Shown here: piece after piece, positions 3,551 through 40,384 of the stretch | Position numbering within the stretch: the first letter of the stretch is position 1 | How the letters are laid out: each line of letters begins with the position of its first letter | From: a virus | Lineage: Duplodnaviria; Caudoviricetes | Length of the DNA stretch: 40,421 bases | IMG/VR virus record: IMGVR_UViG_3300010376_000069 | Location: 1-40,421 of that record | Reading direction: 5' to 3' (one strand) | Made by a program: the position numbers and the translations under genes | The notes under the pieces: model-generated | What the model saw: only the letters and a program-made list of their open reading frames with translations | The model's database searches: none | Told to the model about the DNA's origin: nothing

Positions 3551-3580
3551 AGGTAGTACCCGAAAATAGGAGGTTGGCTA

Positions 3581-31263: not shown

Positions 31264-31421
31264 TTCGCCCCTGGCTCGGGCCTCCAACATGGCCTCGCAG
31301 TACTTGCCCAGTAGACCTGCCTCATAGAGACGCTTGAAAACCTCCACCTTCCAGGTAACCGGGTCTGAGCGGTTGGGTCTCACAAGCGTCTCCAGAGGCC
31401 CCTAGAGGCCCCTGTGACCGA

Positions 31422-31622
31422 CTACAGCCGCATCTGGGCTGTCCAGCCTTCAAAGTACTGGTAGGCGTCTTCCAGGGGTACAGGGTCAGCGTGCTCATGG
31501 CCGCAAGCCCAGTCCCCCCAAGGATCGCGGTAGCAGGGGGGACCGGACTCGTCATGCACGAGGAACGTGCGCCCAGAGCGAGGGAGGTTCTGGGAGGTGA
31601 TGATGCCCTTCTGAGTCGCCAT
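31422..31622 (-). CDS. Hypothetical protein (66 aa)
   Basis: ATG 31622 overlaps the upstream TGA; MATQKG...CGHEH...YFEGWTAQMRL. Confidence 0.55.
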   Translation of the reverse strand: MATQKGIITSQNLPRSGRTFLVHDESGPPCYRDPWGDWACGHEHADPVPLEDAYQYFEGWTAQMRL

Positions 31623-35783: not shown

Positions 35784-35971
35784 TCGTTCACCCCCTCTCC
35801 TGTCTTGACCTTCTTCCAATCGACCCCGAACGCCTCCAGGGCATTACGTAGCCTGGTGATGTAGGGCACGTAGACCTGGCAGGTAGGGTTCCTGGGATTG
35901 AGGGGAGGGTCACAGGCCACCTCGATGGCAGCCAGGAACACCTCGTACTCGGGGGTGCCCTCCTCGATCAT
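35780..35971 (-). CDS. Hypothetical protein (63 aa)
   Basis: ATGA and GTGA overlaps with neighbours. Confidence 0.6.
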   Translation of the reverse strand: MIEEGTPEYEVFLAAIEVACDPPLNPRNPTCQVYVPYITRLRNALEAFGVDWKKVKTGEGVNE

Positions 35972-37425
35972 GACCGGTAGTCGGACAGCTTGGCGGGGCA
36001 GGACCGTAGCTTGGCTCCGATGTCTGCGATGTCGCGGATGAATCCGTCAGTGAAGTGGTCGCCTTGAGTGTGATGGGTGAACTCGTGGATCACCAGGGCG
36101 TCCAGGGCCTCCTGGGTCACGGTCTTGGGGAAGTGCCGCCCGACGTTGCGGAAGTAGATGGTCATGGTGCGCCCGCCCCAGGAGGCAGAGGATCGCTTCT
36201 GCCCGGTGCTCGCCATCGAGTACTCGACGTCGGGAGCAAAGCCCAGGACGTGCTTGCCCAAGGCGTGGATGTAGTCCTCCACCTGGAACATCTCCGGAGT
36301 CCAGTCGGCCCGCCTGATGGGTGGGATGCCGTCCGGACTTGTCGGAACGTGGGTCTGGATGACCTGGCCCGCAGGCTTGAAGGTCTGTCGCTCACGCATG
36401 CGGTCCCACATGTCAGTGCTCAGTGTTCGACCGCCGATGACCTGACGACCCTGGTCGTAGGCCCGCTTGACTGCCTCTGGATTGGAGGGGTCCATGATGA
36501 CGGCGTTCTTGCCATAGATGCCCTCCATCACTGAGTCGAACGCCTCGTCGCTGGCGGTGGCGACCACGTCCTTCACCCAGGTGGACTTCTGGTCGACTGA
36601 GGTGAGGATGTCGAAGGTGGCGTTGAGAGTGACCTCTCGCAGCTTGCGGAGGTAGCTGGGCTTGACGTTGTCGCGGCTGGTGGACAACGGCACCTTCTGC
36701 CCGATGTTGACGTGGAACCGCCCGTCATGTTCGACAACGGGGATGCCCAACTCCAGGATCCAGGCGGGGCCGTGAGCCTCAAACAACTCAACGTCGGTCT
36801 GGCGTCTGGTCTCGTGCATCTGGCCCTCTGCGTCCCAGTAGACAGTGTCGAGGGTCTCCTTCACTGCCTTGACCGGAGCGGGCCGCTCGATGACCGTGTC
36901 ATTGAACTTGAAGGTGATGCCCTCCGGCACGATGATGGCCTGCACCAGGGTGACGAACTCGGCAGCCTCCTGCTTGTTCATCTTGTAGTGGGCCGTCAGT
37001 ACCGTGCCCATCGTGGTCTTCTGCGTGGACTCACTGCGACCCGCCTCACTGAAGTCGACGGTGCCAGTGGTGGACTGGATGGACAGAGCGGCGTACCTGC
37101 CGTCAGTGCAGAGGGCGACGATCTCCTTCTCCCCCTGGCCGTAGCGGCCACGAGCGGTGGGATCGCCGCGCCGTTCCGATGCAGCGAAGAGGGTGTACGC
37201 ATCCTTCAGGTTCTTGAAGCCGTCTGGATCGTTGTCCTTGACTGTAAGGGTGGCCCAGCCGTTCTCTTGCGAGAAGGTGACCAGCACCACCGTGGTTCCT
37301 TTGGGATCGAGCGCATTGGAGAGGGCTTCCATCATGACTCGGGGTTTCCCCTTTGCCTGCAAGGTTTCGCGGAAGCCCGCGATGTCAATCTCCAACACGG
37401 TTTGGGTATGGGTAGTTTTAGCCAT
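35968..37425 (-). CDS. GHKL (HATPase_c) ATPase with C-terminal zincin motif
   Basis: EALSNALD, VKDNDPDG, RGRYGQGEK, GT; C-terminal LVIHEFTHH...DHF; leaderless ATG 37425. Confidence 0.82.
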   Translation of the reverse strand: MAKTTHTQTVLEIDIAGFRETLQAKGKPRVMMEALSNALDPKGTTVVLVTFSQENGWATLTVKDNDPDGFKNLKDAYTLFAASERRGDPTARGRYGQGEKEIVALCTDGRYAALSIQSTTGTVDFSEAGRSESTQKTTMGTVLTAHYKMNKQEAAEFVTLVQAIIVPEGITFKFNDTVIERPAPVKAVKETLDTVYWDAEGQMHETRRQTDVELFEAHGPAWILELGIPVVEHDGRFHVNIGQKVPLSTSRDNVKPSYLRKLREVTLNATFDILTSVDQKSTWVKDVVATASDEAFDSVMEGIYGKNAVIMDPSNPEAVKRAYDQGRQVIGGRTLSTDMWDRMRERQTFKPAGQVIQTHVPTSPDGIPPIRRADWTPEMFQVEDYIHALGKHVLGFAPDVEYSMASTGQKRSSASWGGRTMTIYFRNVGRHFPKTVTQEALDALVIHEFTHHTQGDHFTDGFIRDIADIGAKLRSCPAKLSDYRS

Positions 37426-37431
37426 GTACAC

Positions 37432-37512
37432 AGTGTAGCACACCTCCACATGTAAGTGTTGTCACCCCCATGTGGAGAGGTGACCACACTTGTCTGCTCG
37501 CTGTGCTATGCT
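37432..37512. promoter_or_regulatory. Divergent leaderless extended -10 promoters flanking an inverted repeat
   Basis: TGCTACACT (-, 37440-37432) and TGCTATGCT (+, 37504-37512); AAGTGTTGTCACC/GGTGACCACACTT 12-of-13 inverted repeat at 37454-37491. Confidence 0.72.
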
Positions 37513-37519
37513 GTAGGCC

Positions 37520-37852
37520 ATGACCCAAGTCTCGCCTGAGGTTCACACCTACGAGGATGACTTCCCTAAGCATCTTGGCCCGCCTCCTGTTCCGAACTAC
37601 ACCGGGGGCAAGCTAGTCGAGGCCCGCCACCCCACCATGCTGGTGCAGCTAGATTCCGGGGCCTTCTGGGCACTGTGGGAACTGCTGGAGAAGGAAGCCA
37701 AGCATCGCTATCCAGCAGCCAAGGCCATCTCCGCGTACGGTGCGTACCTCAGGGCTGTCGAGGCATTCCGTAAGACCTACTGGTCGCACAACGTGCCGCC
37801 TGACCCTCAGGCCAAGCCAGTCCGCAAGCTAGTGAGGAAGCCGCGTAAGTGA
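37520..37852 (+). CDS. Hypothetical protein (110 aa), leaderless
   Basis: ATG 7 nt after the extended -10; GTGA overlap with the next gene. Confidence 0.7.
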   Translation: MTQVSPEVHTYEDDFPKHLGPPPVPNYTGGKLVEARHPTMLVQLDSGAFWALWELLEKEAKHRYPAAKAISAYGAYLRAVEAFRKTYWSHNVPPDPQAKPVRKLVRKPRK

Positions 37853-38136
37853 GTCACTTCTACGACATCGATCCCGAAGATGCTGAGTCGCCCTGGCTCC
37901 TCGATGAGTACATGGGCCTGCATCCTGGTGACCACGTCGTCTACCAGAACCCGGACTGGCAGCAGCCTGACGGTACCTACAAGACCGCAGGCATGGACCC
38001 TCCCCTGGTGATCACTGAGCTAGTCCAGCTTGGTGACGAGTTCGTCACCGCCATCATCAACAACGGGGAGTGGGAGGTCAACGCTGAGAACCTGGCCCTG
38101 GAAAAATCTGAGGGGACAGAGGAGGCTGAAGAGTAG
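37849..38136 (+). CDS. Small acidic protein, possible SH3-like barrel
   Basis: GLHPGDHVVY...LVITE...WEVNAENL. Confidence 0.65.
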   Translation: MSHFYDIDPEDAESPWLLDEYMGLHPGDHVVYQNPDWQQPDGTYKTAGMDPPLVITELVQLGDEFVTAIINNGEWEVNAENLALEKSEGTEEAEE

Positions 38137-38144
38137 TACCTTTT

Positions 38145-38298
38145 TTCTAGTGAGGTTCCCGGCAAGGGCATAAGCCCGGTCTCGTTGATCCGCTGGTGTG
38201 TGACTGCGGAGAGGGGTCGGTGCTCAATGGGAAGGAGTGGATGAAACCGGTGGAGGGTACCTAGGCCGGGAGTAAGGTAGCCGGGAGCTTCGCTAGAA
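38145..38298 (+). ncRNA. Candidate structured RNA (about 154 nt)
   Basis: Nested stems of 19, 8, 6 and 5 bp; five G-U pairs valid only on the + strand. Confidence 0.6.
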
Positions 38299-38414
38299 CC
38301 AGACTGAGGCAAACAAAACCACGGATGTACGCAGGGACGCCAGCCCTGCCAGGGCCTGGGAGGCTAACCGCCGTCGCACCAGTCCCTGGGCCTCAGTCTG
38401 GGTATAACCAGGAC

Positions 38415-38519
38415 ATGTCGCATCTGCAAGCAGGCATCCTGGTGGTGGAGGTGGGCATCATCGCCGTGGCCTATCTCCTGGGCATGTTCTGGAGGGGGCC
38501 TGGTCGCCCCGTTCCCTAA
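38415..38519 (+). CDS. 34-aa single-TM peptide
   Basis: MSHLQAGILVVEVGIIAVAYLLGMFWRGPGRPVP; stop overlaps the convergent stop. Confidence 0.55.
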   Translation: MSHLQAGILVVEVGIIAVAYLLGMFWRGPGRPVP

Positions 38520-38773
38520 CCAGGGATCACGTTCTCCAGCATCCCAAGACACGCCTCCAGGTGGAGACGTACCTCTCGTAGCTGGTCTAGCTGGGCCTCC
38601 CGGTCTGCACCGCTGTGCCGGTAGCTGCTGATGCGCTGGCCCATGGTCATGACCGCCACGTCGACCTCGTTGACGATCTCGGCCTCTGTGAGTGAGGCTG
38701 AGCGGTCCCTGGCCCTCTTCCAGAAGCCAGCATCCCGCCTTGACTGCCGCCAGAGCTTAAGAGCCGACGCCAC
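38516..38773 (-). CDS. Helical hypothetical protein (about 85 aa)
   Basis: GTG 38773 minimises overlap with the upstream gene. Confidence 0.6.
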   Translation of the reverse strand: MASALKLWRQSRRDAGFWKRARDRSASLTEAEIVNEVDVAVMTMGQRISSYRHSGADREAQLDQLREVRLHLEACLGMLENVIPG

Positions 38774-39590
38774 TGACCGTCTTGCCCACCCGGACCAGAC
38801 GAATACCGTTGGCCGCAGCAGCCTTCTTGATGTTCGTGATCGTTGCCCCGACATGCTCGACTTGCTTCAGGGCCTTCTTGGTCTTGGCTCGTTCTCGTTC
38901 TCGTGCCCGCCTGGCCCTGGCCCGTTCCGCTGCCCTCTGTTTGGCCTTGTCAGCCGCCCTGGCTTCCTTGCTCCCCGGAGGTAAGCCGTCCTTCCTGGGA
39001 CGCCCACGGGGCCGCATAGACCCCTCTGGGCGGCTTTTGGTGGCCCCAGGGGGCGGTATGGAAAATGCTGTCTTGGTGAAGGCATGTCGAGGGCCGAACT
39101 TTGTTCTGGCTCCGGGGCTGTTGTAGTCCACTGTGACCTTGGCTTCACCAGGAGCCGGGAGGACGTACTGGGCACGCGGCCCTCGTCGCACCACGATCTT
39201 GAACTCACTGTTCGCCAGGGCCAGGGCATCTTCGACATGCACCGGCAGGCCGTTGGTCGGCCCGGTGTTGAAGATCGAGTTGGCCCATGCCTCGACGTCC
39301 TCCTGGGTCCGGATCTCCTTCTTGAGGATGGCCCTGACCCGGATGTCCAGCTTCTCTAGCTGAGGGACGGTCTCAGGGAAGGCCAGGGTGAGGGCTACGA
39401 CATTCTGTCGGAGCTTGTCGACCCGCTCAGGGTCAGAGGAGTACTCCATGCCAGGCCAGATGGTGGCCGTGTTCTTGAACCAGATCCAAGACTCTCCATC
39501 GAAGATGGGGACATAGCCCATCCTCCCCATCTTGATGGTGCCGTTGAAGCCGGTGATTTTCTGCCAAGCCTCAGTTCCGTTCAAGTCCAT
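38757..39590 (-). CDS. Protein with AT-hook and basic C-terminal region (probable DNA binding)
   Basis: RPRGRPRKDG followed by K/R/A-rich helix; ATG 39590 after GGAG. Confidence 0.72.
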   Translation of the reverse strand: MDLNGTEAWQKITGFNGTIKMGRMGYVPIFDGESWIWFKNTATIWPGMEYSSDPERVDKLRQNVVALTLAFPETVPQLEKLDIRVRAILKKEIRTQEDVEAWANSIFNTGPTNGLPVHVEDALALANSEFKIVVRRGPRAQYVLPAPGEAKVTVDYNSPGARTKFGPRHAFTKTAFSIPPPGATKSRPEGSMRPRGRPRKDGLPPGSKEARAADKAKQRAAERARARRARERERAKTKKALKQVEHVGATITNIKKAAAANGIRLVRVGKTVSGVGS

Positions 39591-39930
39591 TCTCCAAGCG
39601 GTGTGACCTGGCAGCAACCTGCTGCCAGTCCTTCTCCAGGGGAGAGTCGCTCAGAATACGTGGTGGCTTTCCCCGGAGCCAGACGCCTACAGCATAAGCG
39701 CGTGATTTTTTGCGGAGCATGATACCTGCTCCACGTCTCCAGGGAGGAGTGATCTCGCGGGTGATCGCTAGGCCCACCGGCCATCGGCTCCGGCGCGGCT
39801 CGCCTCGCCAGGAGTACAGGATCCACCACGAAGAGGTGTTGTCAGGAACTGAGGAGGCGTCTGGGAGGCTGGGTAGTACCCACTTGTTTTCCTCCGGATC
39901 GTCGTAGGCGGGGTCTGGGTGTATCTCCAT
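39571..39930 (-). CDS. Trp-rich hypothetical protein (119 aa)
   Basis: Collinear ORF; TREITPPWRRGAGIML. Confidence 0.6.
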   Translation of the reverse strand: MEIHPDPAYDDPEENKWVLPSLPDASSVPDNTSSWWILYSWRGEPRRSRWPVGLAITREITPPWRRGAGIMLRKKSRAYAVGVWLRGKPPRILSDSPLEKDWQQVAARSHRLENGLERN

Positions 39931-40042: not shown

Positions 40043-40384
40043 CTACTCCCCGACAATGCTGCCCCATCCGCCTTGACCGTAGGGGTAACCGTTCAGCACG
40101 GCATTGATGTACTGCCCCGGAGAACTGACCCGCTTGAATCGGGTCCAGATGCCTGGGGACACTTCGTCGTAGTGCCAGGGGGTGCCGTCCCGGAAGATGA
40201 CCTCCAACCGTTGCAGCTTGTGGGAATATCGGGCCTGTAGGGTCCGGGGTCGGGGTGGGTTGATCGTGCGCGTAGGCCAGTAGTAGTCCCAGTCAGGACT
40301 GGGGCTGGGGCCGAATGGCCCCTGGAGGCCCTTCTGCTCGCCGTAGCCAGGCTCCCAGGGTCTGTCAGCAACGTCCTCTGCCAC
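40043..40384 (-). CDS. KTSC-domain protein
   Basis: ARYSHKLQRLEVIFRDG..WHYDEVSP.IW..F....SPGQYIN..L.GYPY; start may lie further upstream. Confidence 0.8.
   Translation of the reverse strand: MAEDVADRPWEPGYGEQKGLQGPFGPSPSPDWDYYWPTRTINPPRPRTLQARYSHKLQRLEVIFRDGTPWHYDEVSPGIWTRFKRVSSPGQYINAVLNGYPYGQGGWGSIVGE

What the first reader, a model, noticed from the sequence alone, without database searches (positions are those of the whole stretch)
38145..38298. Highly structured ~154-nt intergenic RNA that I cannot assign to a known family
Seen in sequence: TTCTAGTGAGGTTCCCGGC (38145-38163) pairs over all 19 positions with GCCGGGAGCTTCGCTAGAA (38280-38298). Inside, after an 11/9-nt purine-rich bubble, CCCGGTCT (38175-82) pairs with AGGCCGGG (38263-70), CGTTGA (38183-88) with TCAATG (38224-29), and TCCGC (38189-93) with GCGGA (38206-10). 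The five non-Watson-Crick positions in these stems are all G-U on the + strand, which favours selection on RNA structure over a DNA palindrome. The element holds seven GGA motifs and a 7-codon mini-ORF (MKPVEGT, ATG 38241) behind AAGGAG. It fills one of the largest gaps in a tightly packed genome. Inference: a phage ncRNA or regulatory leader, for example a 6S/Ms1-like polymerase decoy (stem-bubble-stem), a CsrA-type GGA sponge, or a toxin-mRNA leader.
Basis: partly seen in the sequence, partly recalled or inferred. Interest (0 to 1): 0.8.

Follow-up and report, generated by a model that had tools for sequence, protein, structure and literature searches.

The report
Swappable small RNA in actinophage slot
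In a soil phage that likely infects Actinobacteria, a conserved promoter-like motif heads a slot that related phages fill with nothing, a tiny gene or one of several unrelated folded RNA-like elements, and this phage fills it with a predicted ~255-nt two-domain RNA of no catalogued family that would likely act as a decoy for a host protein.

Summary
Just upstream lies a promoter-like motif kept in 21 of 21 related loci. Its offset to leaderless start codons in relatives puts the start at about 38146, the 5' edge of the stem. Relatives fill the same slot with nothing, small genes, or other structured elements, one of which shows covariation and a likely pseudoknot. This RNA was seen only in near-identical strains and one variant contig. 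In that variant 16 of 17 changes fall in the 56-nt apex while rod, bubble and second domain stay unchanged. It shows no covariation of its own, and there are no RNA data. It matches neither Rfam 6S nor Ms1; the CsrA-sponge, toxin-leader and antisense-ORF readings are weakened. Best reading: a stand-alone accessory phage small RNA (about 0.8) that likely binds a host protein through its rod and bubble (0.4); an RNA-polymerase decoy is the boldest surviving option (0.15).

The parts
38103..38139 (+). Promoter-like motif heading the slot: A-tract and TGAG about 20-30 nt upstream of the invariant core GTAGTAC (38133-38139); overlaps the end of the upstream gene. Promoter role inferred.
   Evidence: Core present in 21 of 21 related loci and 18 of 18 rows aligned; 0.04 expected per kb; ATG/GTG 6-7 nt behind it in L006, L106, L114; same core before the major capsid RBS at window 3553 and in G003 and G005.
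38145..38298 (+). Domain I of the predicted RNA: rod of 19-bp helix, 11/9 bubble, 8-bp helix, internal loop, 5-9-bp helix and a variable apex. Predicted start 38146-38147.
   Evidence: start inferred from the offset of leaderless start codons in relatives.
38145..38163 (+). 5' arm of the closing helix (pairs with 38280-38298)
   Evidence: Pair probability about 1.0 for 17 of 19 pairs; the inner 12 pairs are unchanged in the variant contig, whose letters before 38152 differ.
38164..38174 (+). 5' strand of the purine-rich bubble (opposite 38271-38279)
   Evidence: no listed change in the variant.
38175..38182 (+). 5' arm of the inner 8-bp helix (pairs with 38263-38270)
   Evidence: Pair probability 0.9-0.96; outer six pairs unchanged in the variant.
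38181..38236 (+). Variable apex: holds 16 of the 17 differences of the variant; no fixed fold supported
   Evidence: 10 substitutions and 6 indels listed here; clustering P about 1.4e-7.
38299..38401 (+).
   Evidence: lies on the same variant contig as domain I up to 38396 with at most one change; absent from L005/L105, which have the same downstream promoter and ORF start.
38402..38408 (+). Second promoter-like motif of the same class (GTATAAC), 6 nt before ATG 38415
   Evidence: counterpart in L005/L105.
38415..38519 (+). Leaderless 34-codon hydrophobic ORF; a separate cargo, only its first six codons are shared with L005 and (five of six) L114
   Evidence: best 19-residue hydropathy 2.3.
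37849..38136 (+). Upstream gene (95 aa, no Pfam); real gene whose shadow is the C-terminal half of the antisense ORF
   Evidence: 75-78% protein identity in 7 of 18 loci searched; no Pfam hit.
38516..38776 (-). Convergent conserved gene (ORF-B, about 85 aa, no Pfam) that bounds the slot
38241..38264 (+). 7-codon mini-ORF; present but unsupported as a functional feature
   Evidence: only 3 nt between AAGGAG and ATG; the A at 38236 of that motif is deleted in the variant, while the codons are unchanged.

Best explanation
The stretch is likely a stand-alone accessory small RNA of about 255 nt (38146-38401), predicted to be made from a conserved promoter-like motif that heads a swappable slot in this group of phages, and it would act in trans as a decoy that binds a host protein through its rod and bubble. 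Shown: the motif, its conservation, the interchangeable cargo (nothing, small genes, three other structured elements), the predicted fold, and a variant that keeps rod, bubble and domain II while its apex changes. Inferred: that the motif is a promoter, likely active late because it also precedes the capsid gene; that transcription starts at the 5' edge of the closing helix, which would shield the 5' end; that the two domains form one RNA; and that it binds a protein rather than an mRNA. The protein is not identified. Host RNA polymerase (as for Ms1/6S) is the best single named candidate; a host defence or RNA-binding protein is about as likely. Odds: about 0.8 that it is a transcribed structured RNA, about 0.4 for the full decoy mechanism.
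For: GTAGTAC next to ORF-B in 21 of 21 loci against 0.04 expected per kb. Leaderless ATG/GTG 6-7 nt behind the motif in L006, L106, L114 and behind its copies in the window, L005 and L107, which puts the start at 38146-47, the helix edge. All 7 loci that share the upstream gene (about 80% DNA identity) carry another structured element, type B, at this very spot, and contigs in runs X1 and X2 replace 38144-38521 with 96 other letters. Type B: 4 of 24 pairs change on both sides, 97.9% of cells pair, 4 of 500 shuffles reach the covariation score, slid controls 30-43% paired (4 sequences only). Type C folds with z -6.62 and repeats a C-UCAA-G-type loop motif five times, the look of a multivalent protein sponge. 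Variant contig in run X3: 16 of 17 differences in the apex, at most 1 in the other 189 nt. No pairing to the rest of the window above shuffles: best 12 Watson-Crick or 20 with G-U, against shuffled maxima of 11-15 and 15-21. Host group: capsid 69% identical to the Streptomyces phage BRock group; WhiB in relative G007.
Against: No covariation for this RNA itself: the kept parts do not vary and the changes in the apex break pairs (2 of 9 in the preferred inner helix) without compensation (read by hand). The variant is one contig of depth 4.6 and its clustered changes could be a recombined patch rather than selection. The outer 7 pairs of the 19-bp helix differ in the variant. Folding statistics alone are borderline. 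No + strand terminator-like site was found, so the 3' end is a guess. The motif is kept where the slot is empty (6 of 21 loci), so its main job may be something else, such as antisense transcription into ORF-B. It is missing before the capsid gene of G007 and GiJojo. Only 34% of the phage genome is held, so a partner gene or a pairing target may be unseen, and host mRNAs were not searched.
Confidence: 0.4

Rival explanations
1. Cis-acting structure: the folds are a 5' stabiliser, attenuator or insulator for the slot transcript, which runs on into the small ORF and antisense into ORF-B, or they stop the convergent ORF-B transcript; no separate trans function.
For: No + strand terminator-like site; one weak - strand site at 38334-38319, at chance level. 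The motif is kept in empty slots, where it would read antisense into ORF-B. Domain II has a perfect 12-bp helix and folds equally well on both strands (-55.7 and -55.9).
Against: 6 of 21 loci need no structure here. The single-stranded bubble and linker letters are also unchanged in the variant. Type B keeps loop letters and a likely pseudoknot, more than a terminator needs.
Confidence: 0.2
2. Specific case of the best explanation: a functional analogue of Ms1/6S that mimics an open promoter and holds host RNA polymerase.
For: Long hairpin with a central bubble; bubble and adjacent helices are the kept part in the variant, as reported for Ms1 homologs (PMC4191392, passages); likely actinobacterial host.
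Against: No 6S or Ms1 model hit at E up to 10; bubble predicted to be partly paired; closest relatives swap it for elements with no such shape.
Confidence: 0.15
3. DNA-level element or neutral insert: a small inverted-repeat mobile piece or a single-stranded DNA hairpin, or partly chance folding in a G+C-rich gap.
For: The + strand is also favoured with DNA parameters; 2 of 30 controls reach a 19-bp helix; patchy presence.
Against: Single copy in the window; no tyrosine integrase or reverse transcriptase in 4 of 4 records; predicted start coincides with the helix edge; slot neighbours show RNA-type covariation with G-U. A serine recombinase exists in G007 but far from the slot.
Confidence: 0.12
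4. Leader or antitoxin of a type I toxin-antitoxin pair with the 34-codon hydrophobic ORF as toxin.
For: A small hydrophobic ORF follows on the same strand; other relatives carry small membrane ORFs in the slot.
Against: The ORF has its own promoter-like motif and is leaderless; its start occurs behind type B (L005) and with no RNA at all (L114); its sequence after codon 6 is not kept; no complementarity above shuffles to the rest of the window, which included most of the ORF.
Confidence: 0.06
5. CsrA/RsmA-type GGA sponge, or a ribosome-binding RNA using its purine-rich SD-like stretches and mini-ORF.
For: 7 GGA against 3.1 expected per 154 nt; 72% purines in 38209-38280; two GGA lie in predicted hairpin loops.
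Against: Only 3 of 7 are predicted unpaired; the variant loses 2, including the best loop-placed one, and weakens AAGGAG; AAGGAG lies 3 nt from the ATG. That CsrA is uncommon in Actinobacteria is recalled, not checked (one search gave listings only).
Confidence: 0.06
6. The antisense ORF 37977-38312 is the real gene and the fold is incidental.
For: 111 open codons; its C-terminal half is open in 6 of 7 relatives that match.
Against: That half is the shadow of the conserved + strand gene 37849-38136; the first 44 codons and the start have no match in relatives; L101 has a stop in that frame; the variant's six indels shift the frame by a net two letters.
Confidence: 0.01

Closest known systems
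Abundant small non-coding RNAs of actinobacteriophages (L5, D29, StarStuff: PMC5712189; Rhodococcus phage WC1: PMC10986025; passages read)
   Same: Gene-free, promoter-driven RNAs of unknown function in phages of Actinobacteria, in regions rich in substitutions and small indels.
   Different: Those are shown by RNA-seq and the L5-type RNA comes from an early promoter at the genome end; this one is predicted only, sits in an internal swappable slot behind a motif shared with the capsid gene, and had no significant match in 50,697 phage records.
Ms1 RNA and 6S RNA (PMC4191392, PMC9130861; passages read)
   Same: Long hairpin with a central bubble; bubble and adjacent helices are the kept part.
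   Different: No covariance-model match; rod of 154 nt against model lengths 187 (6S) and 304 (Ms1); phage location without Ms1 synteny; polymerase binding untested.
Phage pseudo-ToxI RNA mimics of PhiTE (PMC3475682; abstract read)
   Same: A phage non-coding RNA at a variable locus that works as a decoy of a host protein; a precedent for the inferred role, and closer in shape to slot types B (likely pseudoknot) and C (repeated motif).
   Different: This RNA has no tandem repeats and no Rfam ToxI hit; no matching host system is known.
Phage morons and promoter-led gene cassettes (recalled, no call)
   Same: A fixed promoter with exchangeable accessory cargo between conserved genes.
   Different: Here the cargo is a structured non-coding element in 11 of 21 loci, of three unrelated kinds besides this one.

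Membership tests
6S RNA (RF00013) | Match to the family covariance model | tested here: not met
   No hit at E up to 10; control genomes rang in 7 of 14.
6S RNA (RF00013) | Long hairpin with central single-stranded bubble mimicking an open promoter | tested here: inconclusive
   Stem-bubble-stem predicted, but 7 of 20 bubble positions are predicted mostly paired.
6S RNA (RF00013) | Binds RNA polymerase holoenzyme with the primary sigma factor | not testable with these tools
   Needs pull-down.
Ms1 RNA (RF02566) | Match to the family covariance model | tested here: not met
   No hit at E up to 10; no control genome passed the family cut-off, so there is no positive control.
Ms1 RNA (RF02566) | Chromosomal synteny with HAD hydrolase and oxidoreductase genes (PMC9130861) | tested here: not met
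   Flanks are phage genes without Pfam hits.
Ms1 RNA (RF02566) | Bubble and adjacent helices are the most conserved part (PMC4191392) | tested here: inconclusive
   True in the one variant contig; one sequence is too few.
Ms1 RNA (RF02566) | Bubble-dependent binding to RNA polymerase core | not testable with these tools
   Needs pull-down with a bubble deletion.
CsrB/RsmY/RsmZ-type sponges | Many GGA motifs exposed in hairpin loops and kept among homologs (feature recalled) | tested here: not met
   3 of 7 unpaired; 2 of 7 lost in the variant; no Rfam hit.
CsrB/RsmY/RsmZ-type sponges | Host encodes CsrA/RsmA | not tested
   Host species unknown.
Type I toxin-antitoxin locus | Conserved small hydrophobic toxin under a long structured leader with an antisense RNA (feature recalled) | tested here: not met
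   ORF leaderless with its own motif, not conserved beyond codon 6, found without this RNA.
Retron msr-msd | Reverse transcriptase beside an RNA closed by a1/a2 repeats (feature recalled) | tested here: not met
   No PF00078 in the window or 3 relatives, two of them near-complete; none next to the element.
Integron attC cassette | Tyrosine integrase in the element (feature recalled) | tested here: not met
   No PF00589 in 4 of 4 records; a host integrase was not tested.
SigB-family promoter of Streptomyces (for the upstream motif) | -10 hexamer with nearly invariant GGG and A at position 5, weak GNNT -35 (PMC8346170, passages) | tested here: inconclusive
   8 of 18 rows read GGGTAG, the window reads GAGTAG, and the invariant core GTAGTAC runs beyond the hexamer; sigma factor unknown.

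The most novel reading that the evidence does not exclude
These phages keep an RNA expression slot: one conserved late promoter into which unrelated structured RNAs are swapped as interchangeable counter-host tools (a rod-and-bubble RNA here, a pseudoknotted RNA and a repeated-hairpin sponge in relatives), and the RNA in this window is a phage-encoded open-promoter mimic that captures host RNA polymerase, a viral counterpart of Ms1/6S evolved independently.
Probability: 0.15. Interest if true: 0.85.

Novelty: new variant of a known kind. Interest (0 to 1): 0.52.

Why it matters
Phage small RNAs are known mostly as unexplained peaks in RNA-seq. Here a single locus holds at least four unrelated uncatalogued structured elements in exchange with small proteins and with an empty state, behind one motif. 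That natural swap series suggests RNA cargo is under the same turnover as accessory genes, and it gives ready controls: each RNA can be expressed in Streptomyces or Mycobacterium smegmatis and its protein partner pulled down. If the rod binds RNA polymerase it would show that a phage can use an open-promoter mimic against its host. No cultured phage carrying the element was found, which limits direct tests.

Tried and rejected
Rfam at E up to 10 on 37500-39000: two chance hits only; six related loci at E up to 1: one chance hit; G007 at gathering thresholds: none. BLAST against phage and plasmid collections: nothing significant for this RNA or type B. Exact-pattern scans of viral contigs for this RNA found only an identical copy plus unrelated matches (1 of 9; 1 of 3). 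Single-sequence covariance models of domains I and II found no homolog in 47 sources, 488 kb, nor domain I in 8 further records; BLAST of the element against 11 related records gave nothing better than E 0.08. The type B model does not hit the window, so the two are treated as unrelated. Genome-contig scan with ORF-B gave one 19-residue match, judged spurious, so no host prophage was found. No RNA holder was listed among sequencing runs; this says nothing on expression. No tRNA in the window or 3 relatives. No phage sigma factor and no RNA polymerase among 102 ORFs of G007 scanned with Pfam. Self-targeting guide idea: no match of the RNA to either strand of the rest of the window above shuffles. 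Kink-turn, hammerhead, HDV-like ribozyme, SRP, Y RNA and phi29 pRNA shapes were compared by eye from recalled features and set aside; Rfam found none. Literature: 9 searches gave no description of this element; the alignment archives of the survey of about ten thousand viral candidate RNAs (PMC10690425) could not be read, so it or type B may be among those candidates. Small shares in runs X5-X8 were laid and are short near-identical pieces; no habitat claim rests on them.

Full report
Context. The window is a 40,421-base virus record rated 34% complete. It encodes portal, capsid, sheath, tube and baseplate proteins. Its capsid is 69% identical to those of Streptomyces phage BRock and relatives, and the complete relative G007 encodes WhiB and a serine recombinase. 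The host is therefore likely an actinobacterium (inference). The best-covering runs are soil metagenomes, two of which may be the source.

Observation. The outer 19-bp helix, the 11/9 bubble, the 8-bp helix, five G-U pairs, seven GGA and the mini-ORF are in the sequence as described. The + strand folds at -73.3 kcal/mol (z -4.63), the - strand at -48.6 (z -3.88). These numbers are less exceptional than they look: 2 of 30 Markov controls give a helix of 19 or more and 2 of 262 other tiles reach the same z with few shuffles. The G-U bias also favours the + strand under DNA parameters, so it fixes the strand, not the molecule. A second folded domain, 38299-38401, begins at the next base (z -4.92); the two together fold with z -3.91.

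A promoter-led swappable slot. I fetched relatives through the flanking genes. Of the 25 metagenome loci, 2 are identical copies and 2 end before the slot; the other 21 were read. All 21 carry GTAGTAC close to the end of the convergent gene ORF-B, usually with an A-tract and TGAG 20-30 nt upstream, against 0.04 expected per kb. What follows differs: nothing in 6, a small ORF in 4, a 90-nt element (type B) in 7, a multi-hairpin element (type C) in 3, a short hairpin in 1. Many of these loci are near-identical, so they stand for roughly a dozen lineages. None has the window's element. Where a gene follows directly its start codon lies 6-7 nt behind the motif (L006, L106, L114; 10 nt in L070), and copies of the motif stand 6 nt before the small ORF in the window, L005 and L107. 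The same core precedes the capsid ribosome-binding site in the window, G003 and G005, but not in G007 or GiJojo. I read it as a promoter, likely late. If those genes are leaderless the start in the window falls at 38146-47, the 5' edge of the closing helix. The motif resembles SigB-family -10 boxes of Streptomyces (PMC8346170, passages) but does not fit them fully; no phage sigma factor or RNA polymerase was found.

The neighbours in the slot. All 7 loci that share the upstream gene carry type B where the window has its element. A fourth distinct type B sequence came from another viral contig, behind a related motif (L157). On 4 sequences, 4 of 24 named pairs change on both sides and 97.9% of cells pair; 4 of 500 shuffles reach the score, and slid controls pair 30-43%. 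The structure was chosen by eye from these sequences and they are related, so this is supportive, not proof; RNAalifold independently finds the two outer helices with 3 covarying pairs. An invariant 4-bp loop pairing suggests a pseudoknot. Type C folds with z -6.62 and repeats a CUCAAG-type loop five times. Neither matches Rfam, and the type B model does not hit the window.

Conservation of this element. Contigs identical to it occur in runs X4, X5, X7 and X8 as short pieces, and one 288-nt contig in run X3 (depth 4.6) is a variant covering 38152-38396. It has 11 substitutions and 6 indels; 10 substitutions and all 6 indels lie in 38181-38236 and one substitution is not shown. Sixteen of 17 in 56 of 245 nt has P about 1.4e-7 allowing for placement. 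Its loose 5' end keeps the promoter core but differs in the first letters of the helix. There is no compensatory pair. The pattern fits selection on rod, bubble and domain II with a free apex, but a recombined patch would look the same. No further homolog was found by BLAST, patterns or models.

How it likely works. Shown: motif, slot, cargo exchange, predicted fold, one variant. Inferred: the motif drives a + strand RNA of about 255 nt whose 5' end is sealed in a long helix, which would make it stable. It is dispensable (empty slots exist), exchangeable for unrelated structures, not tied to the next gene, and has no pairing target in the part of the genome held. That profile fits an accessory RNA that binds a host protein. 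Its kept part is a helix-bubble-helix, which is what is conserved and needed for polymerase binding in Ms1 (PMC4191392, passages); but it is not a member of 6S or Ms1 by model or synteny (PMC9130861, passages). A decoy against a defence protein has precedent in pseudo-ToxI of PhiTE (PMC3475682, abstract). The main rival is a cis role in stabilising or stopping transcripts at a convergent junction; the absence of a + strand terminator-like site and the survival of the motif in empty slots keep it alive.

Rejected readings. The antisense ORF is the shadow of a conserved + strand gene plus 44 unmatched codons. The CsrA, type I toxin-leader, retron and integron readings each fail a tested feature.

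Novelty. [quoted passage not shown] The listing for the BRock genome paper (PMC7453282, start of abstract) mentions no such RNA. Nine searches found no description of this element, but the alignment archives of PMC10690425 could not be read. Earlier notes of this scan report RNA-filled slots in other actinophages; they are unchecked leads, not support. Verdict: a likely real, uncatalogued accessory phage RNA, larger than first reported, in a slot that swaps unrelated RNAs; expression and function untested. Interest 0.52.

Noticed in passing
L098:795-883 (-), L105:2864-2952 (-), L110:2758-2847 (-), L157:701-790 (+): Type B element: about 90 nt, closing 7-bp helix around a likely H-type pseudoknot plus a 3' hairpin; covarying pairs; no Rfam match; 8 loci hit by its model. 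Better supported as an RNA family than the finding itself; worth its own search and a self-cleavage test.
   Followed up: partly
L108:310-460 (-); also L109, L113: Type C element: six hairpins, five with a repeated CUCAAG-type loop motif, z -6.62, no Rfam match; looks like a multivalent protein sponge or a repeat mimic. It folds about equally on both strands, so a DNA role is open.
   Followed up: partly
L102:2753-2806 (-), same phage as L009: Short hairpin element (z -3.1 on the slot strand, -0.6 on the other) behind the same motif.
   Followed up: no
window 3553-3560; G003 15672; G005 27484: GTAGTACC before the major capsid ribosome-binding site. The 8-mer is strongly biased to one strand in all four records (8:0, 9:2, 17:3, 15:1); part of this comes from Tyr-Tyr codons of opposite-strand genes. 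Four copies cluster at G005 91324-91418.
   Followed up: partly
window 37432-37512: Back-to-back extended -10 type motifs (TGTGCTA..T) before the divergent genes 37520 (+) and 35968-37449 (-), a second promoter class; similar motifs in L066, L067, L069.
   Followed up: no
window 40043-40384 (-) and 38757-39617 (-): A KTSC-domain gene and a DUF6424 gene with an AT-hook-like RPRGRPRK motif are conserved next to the slot; KTSC is recalled as a putative RNA-binding domain and could be a partner of slot RNAs.
   Followed up: no
L006, L011, L066, L067, L106; loose end at window 38417 in run X3: A conserved small membrane protein (about 65 aa) is another slot cargo; a contig in X3 suggests a strain in which it replaces the 34-codon ORF behind the second motif.
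   Followed up: no
window 38252-38271 and 38389-38402: The 3' parts of both domains resemble the empty-slot junctions of L003 and L099 (promoter core plus end of ORF-B), which may be traces of how cargo was inserted; seen by eye, not tested against chance.
   Followed up: no
window 31264-31621: The largest non-coding gap (358 nt) between convergent genes was not examined.
   Followed up: no
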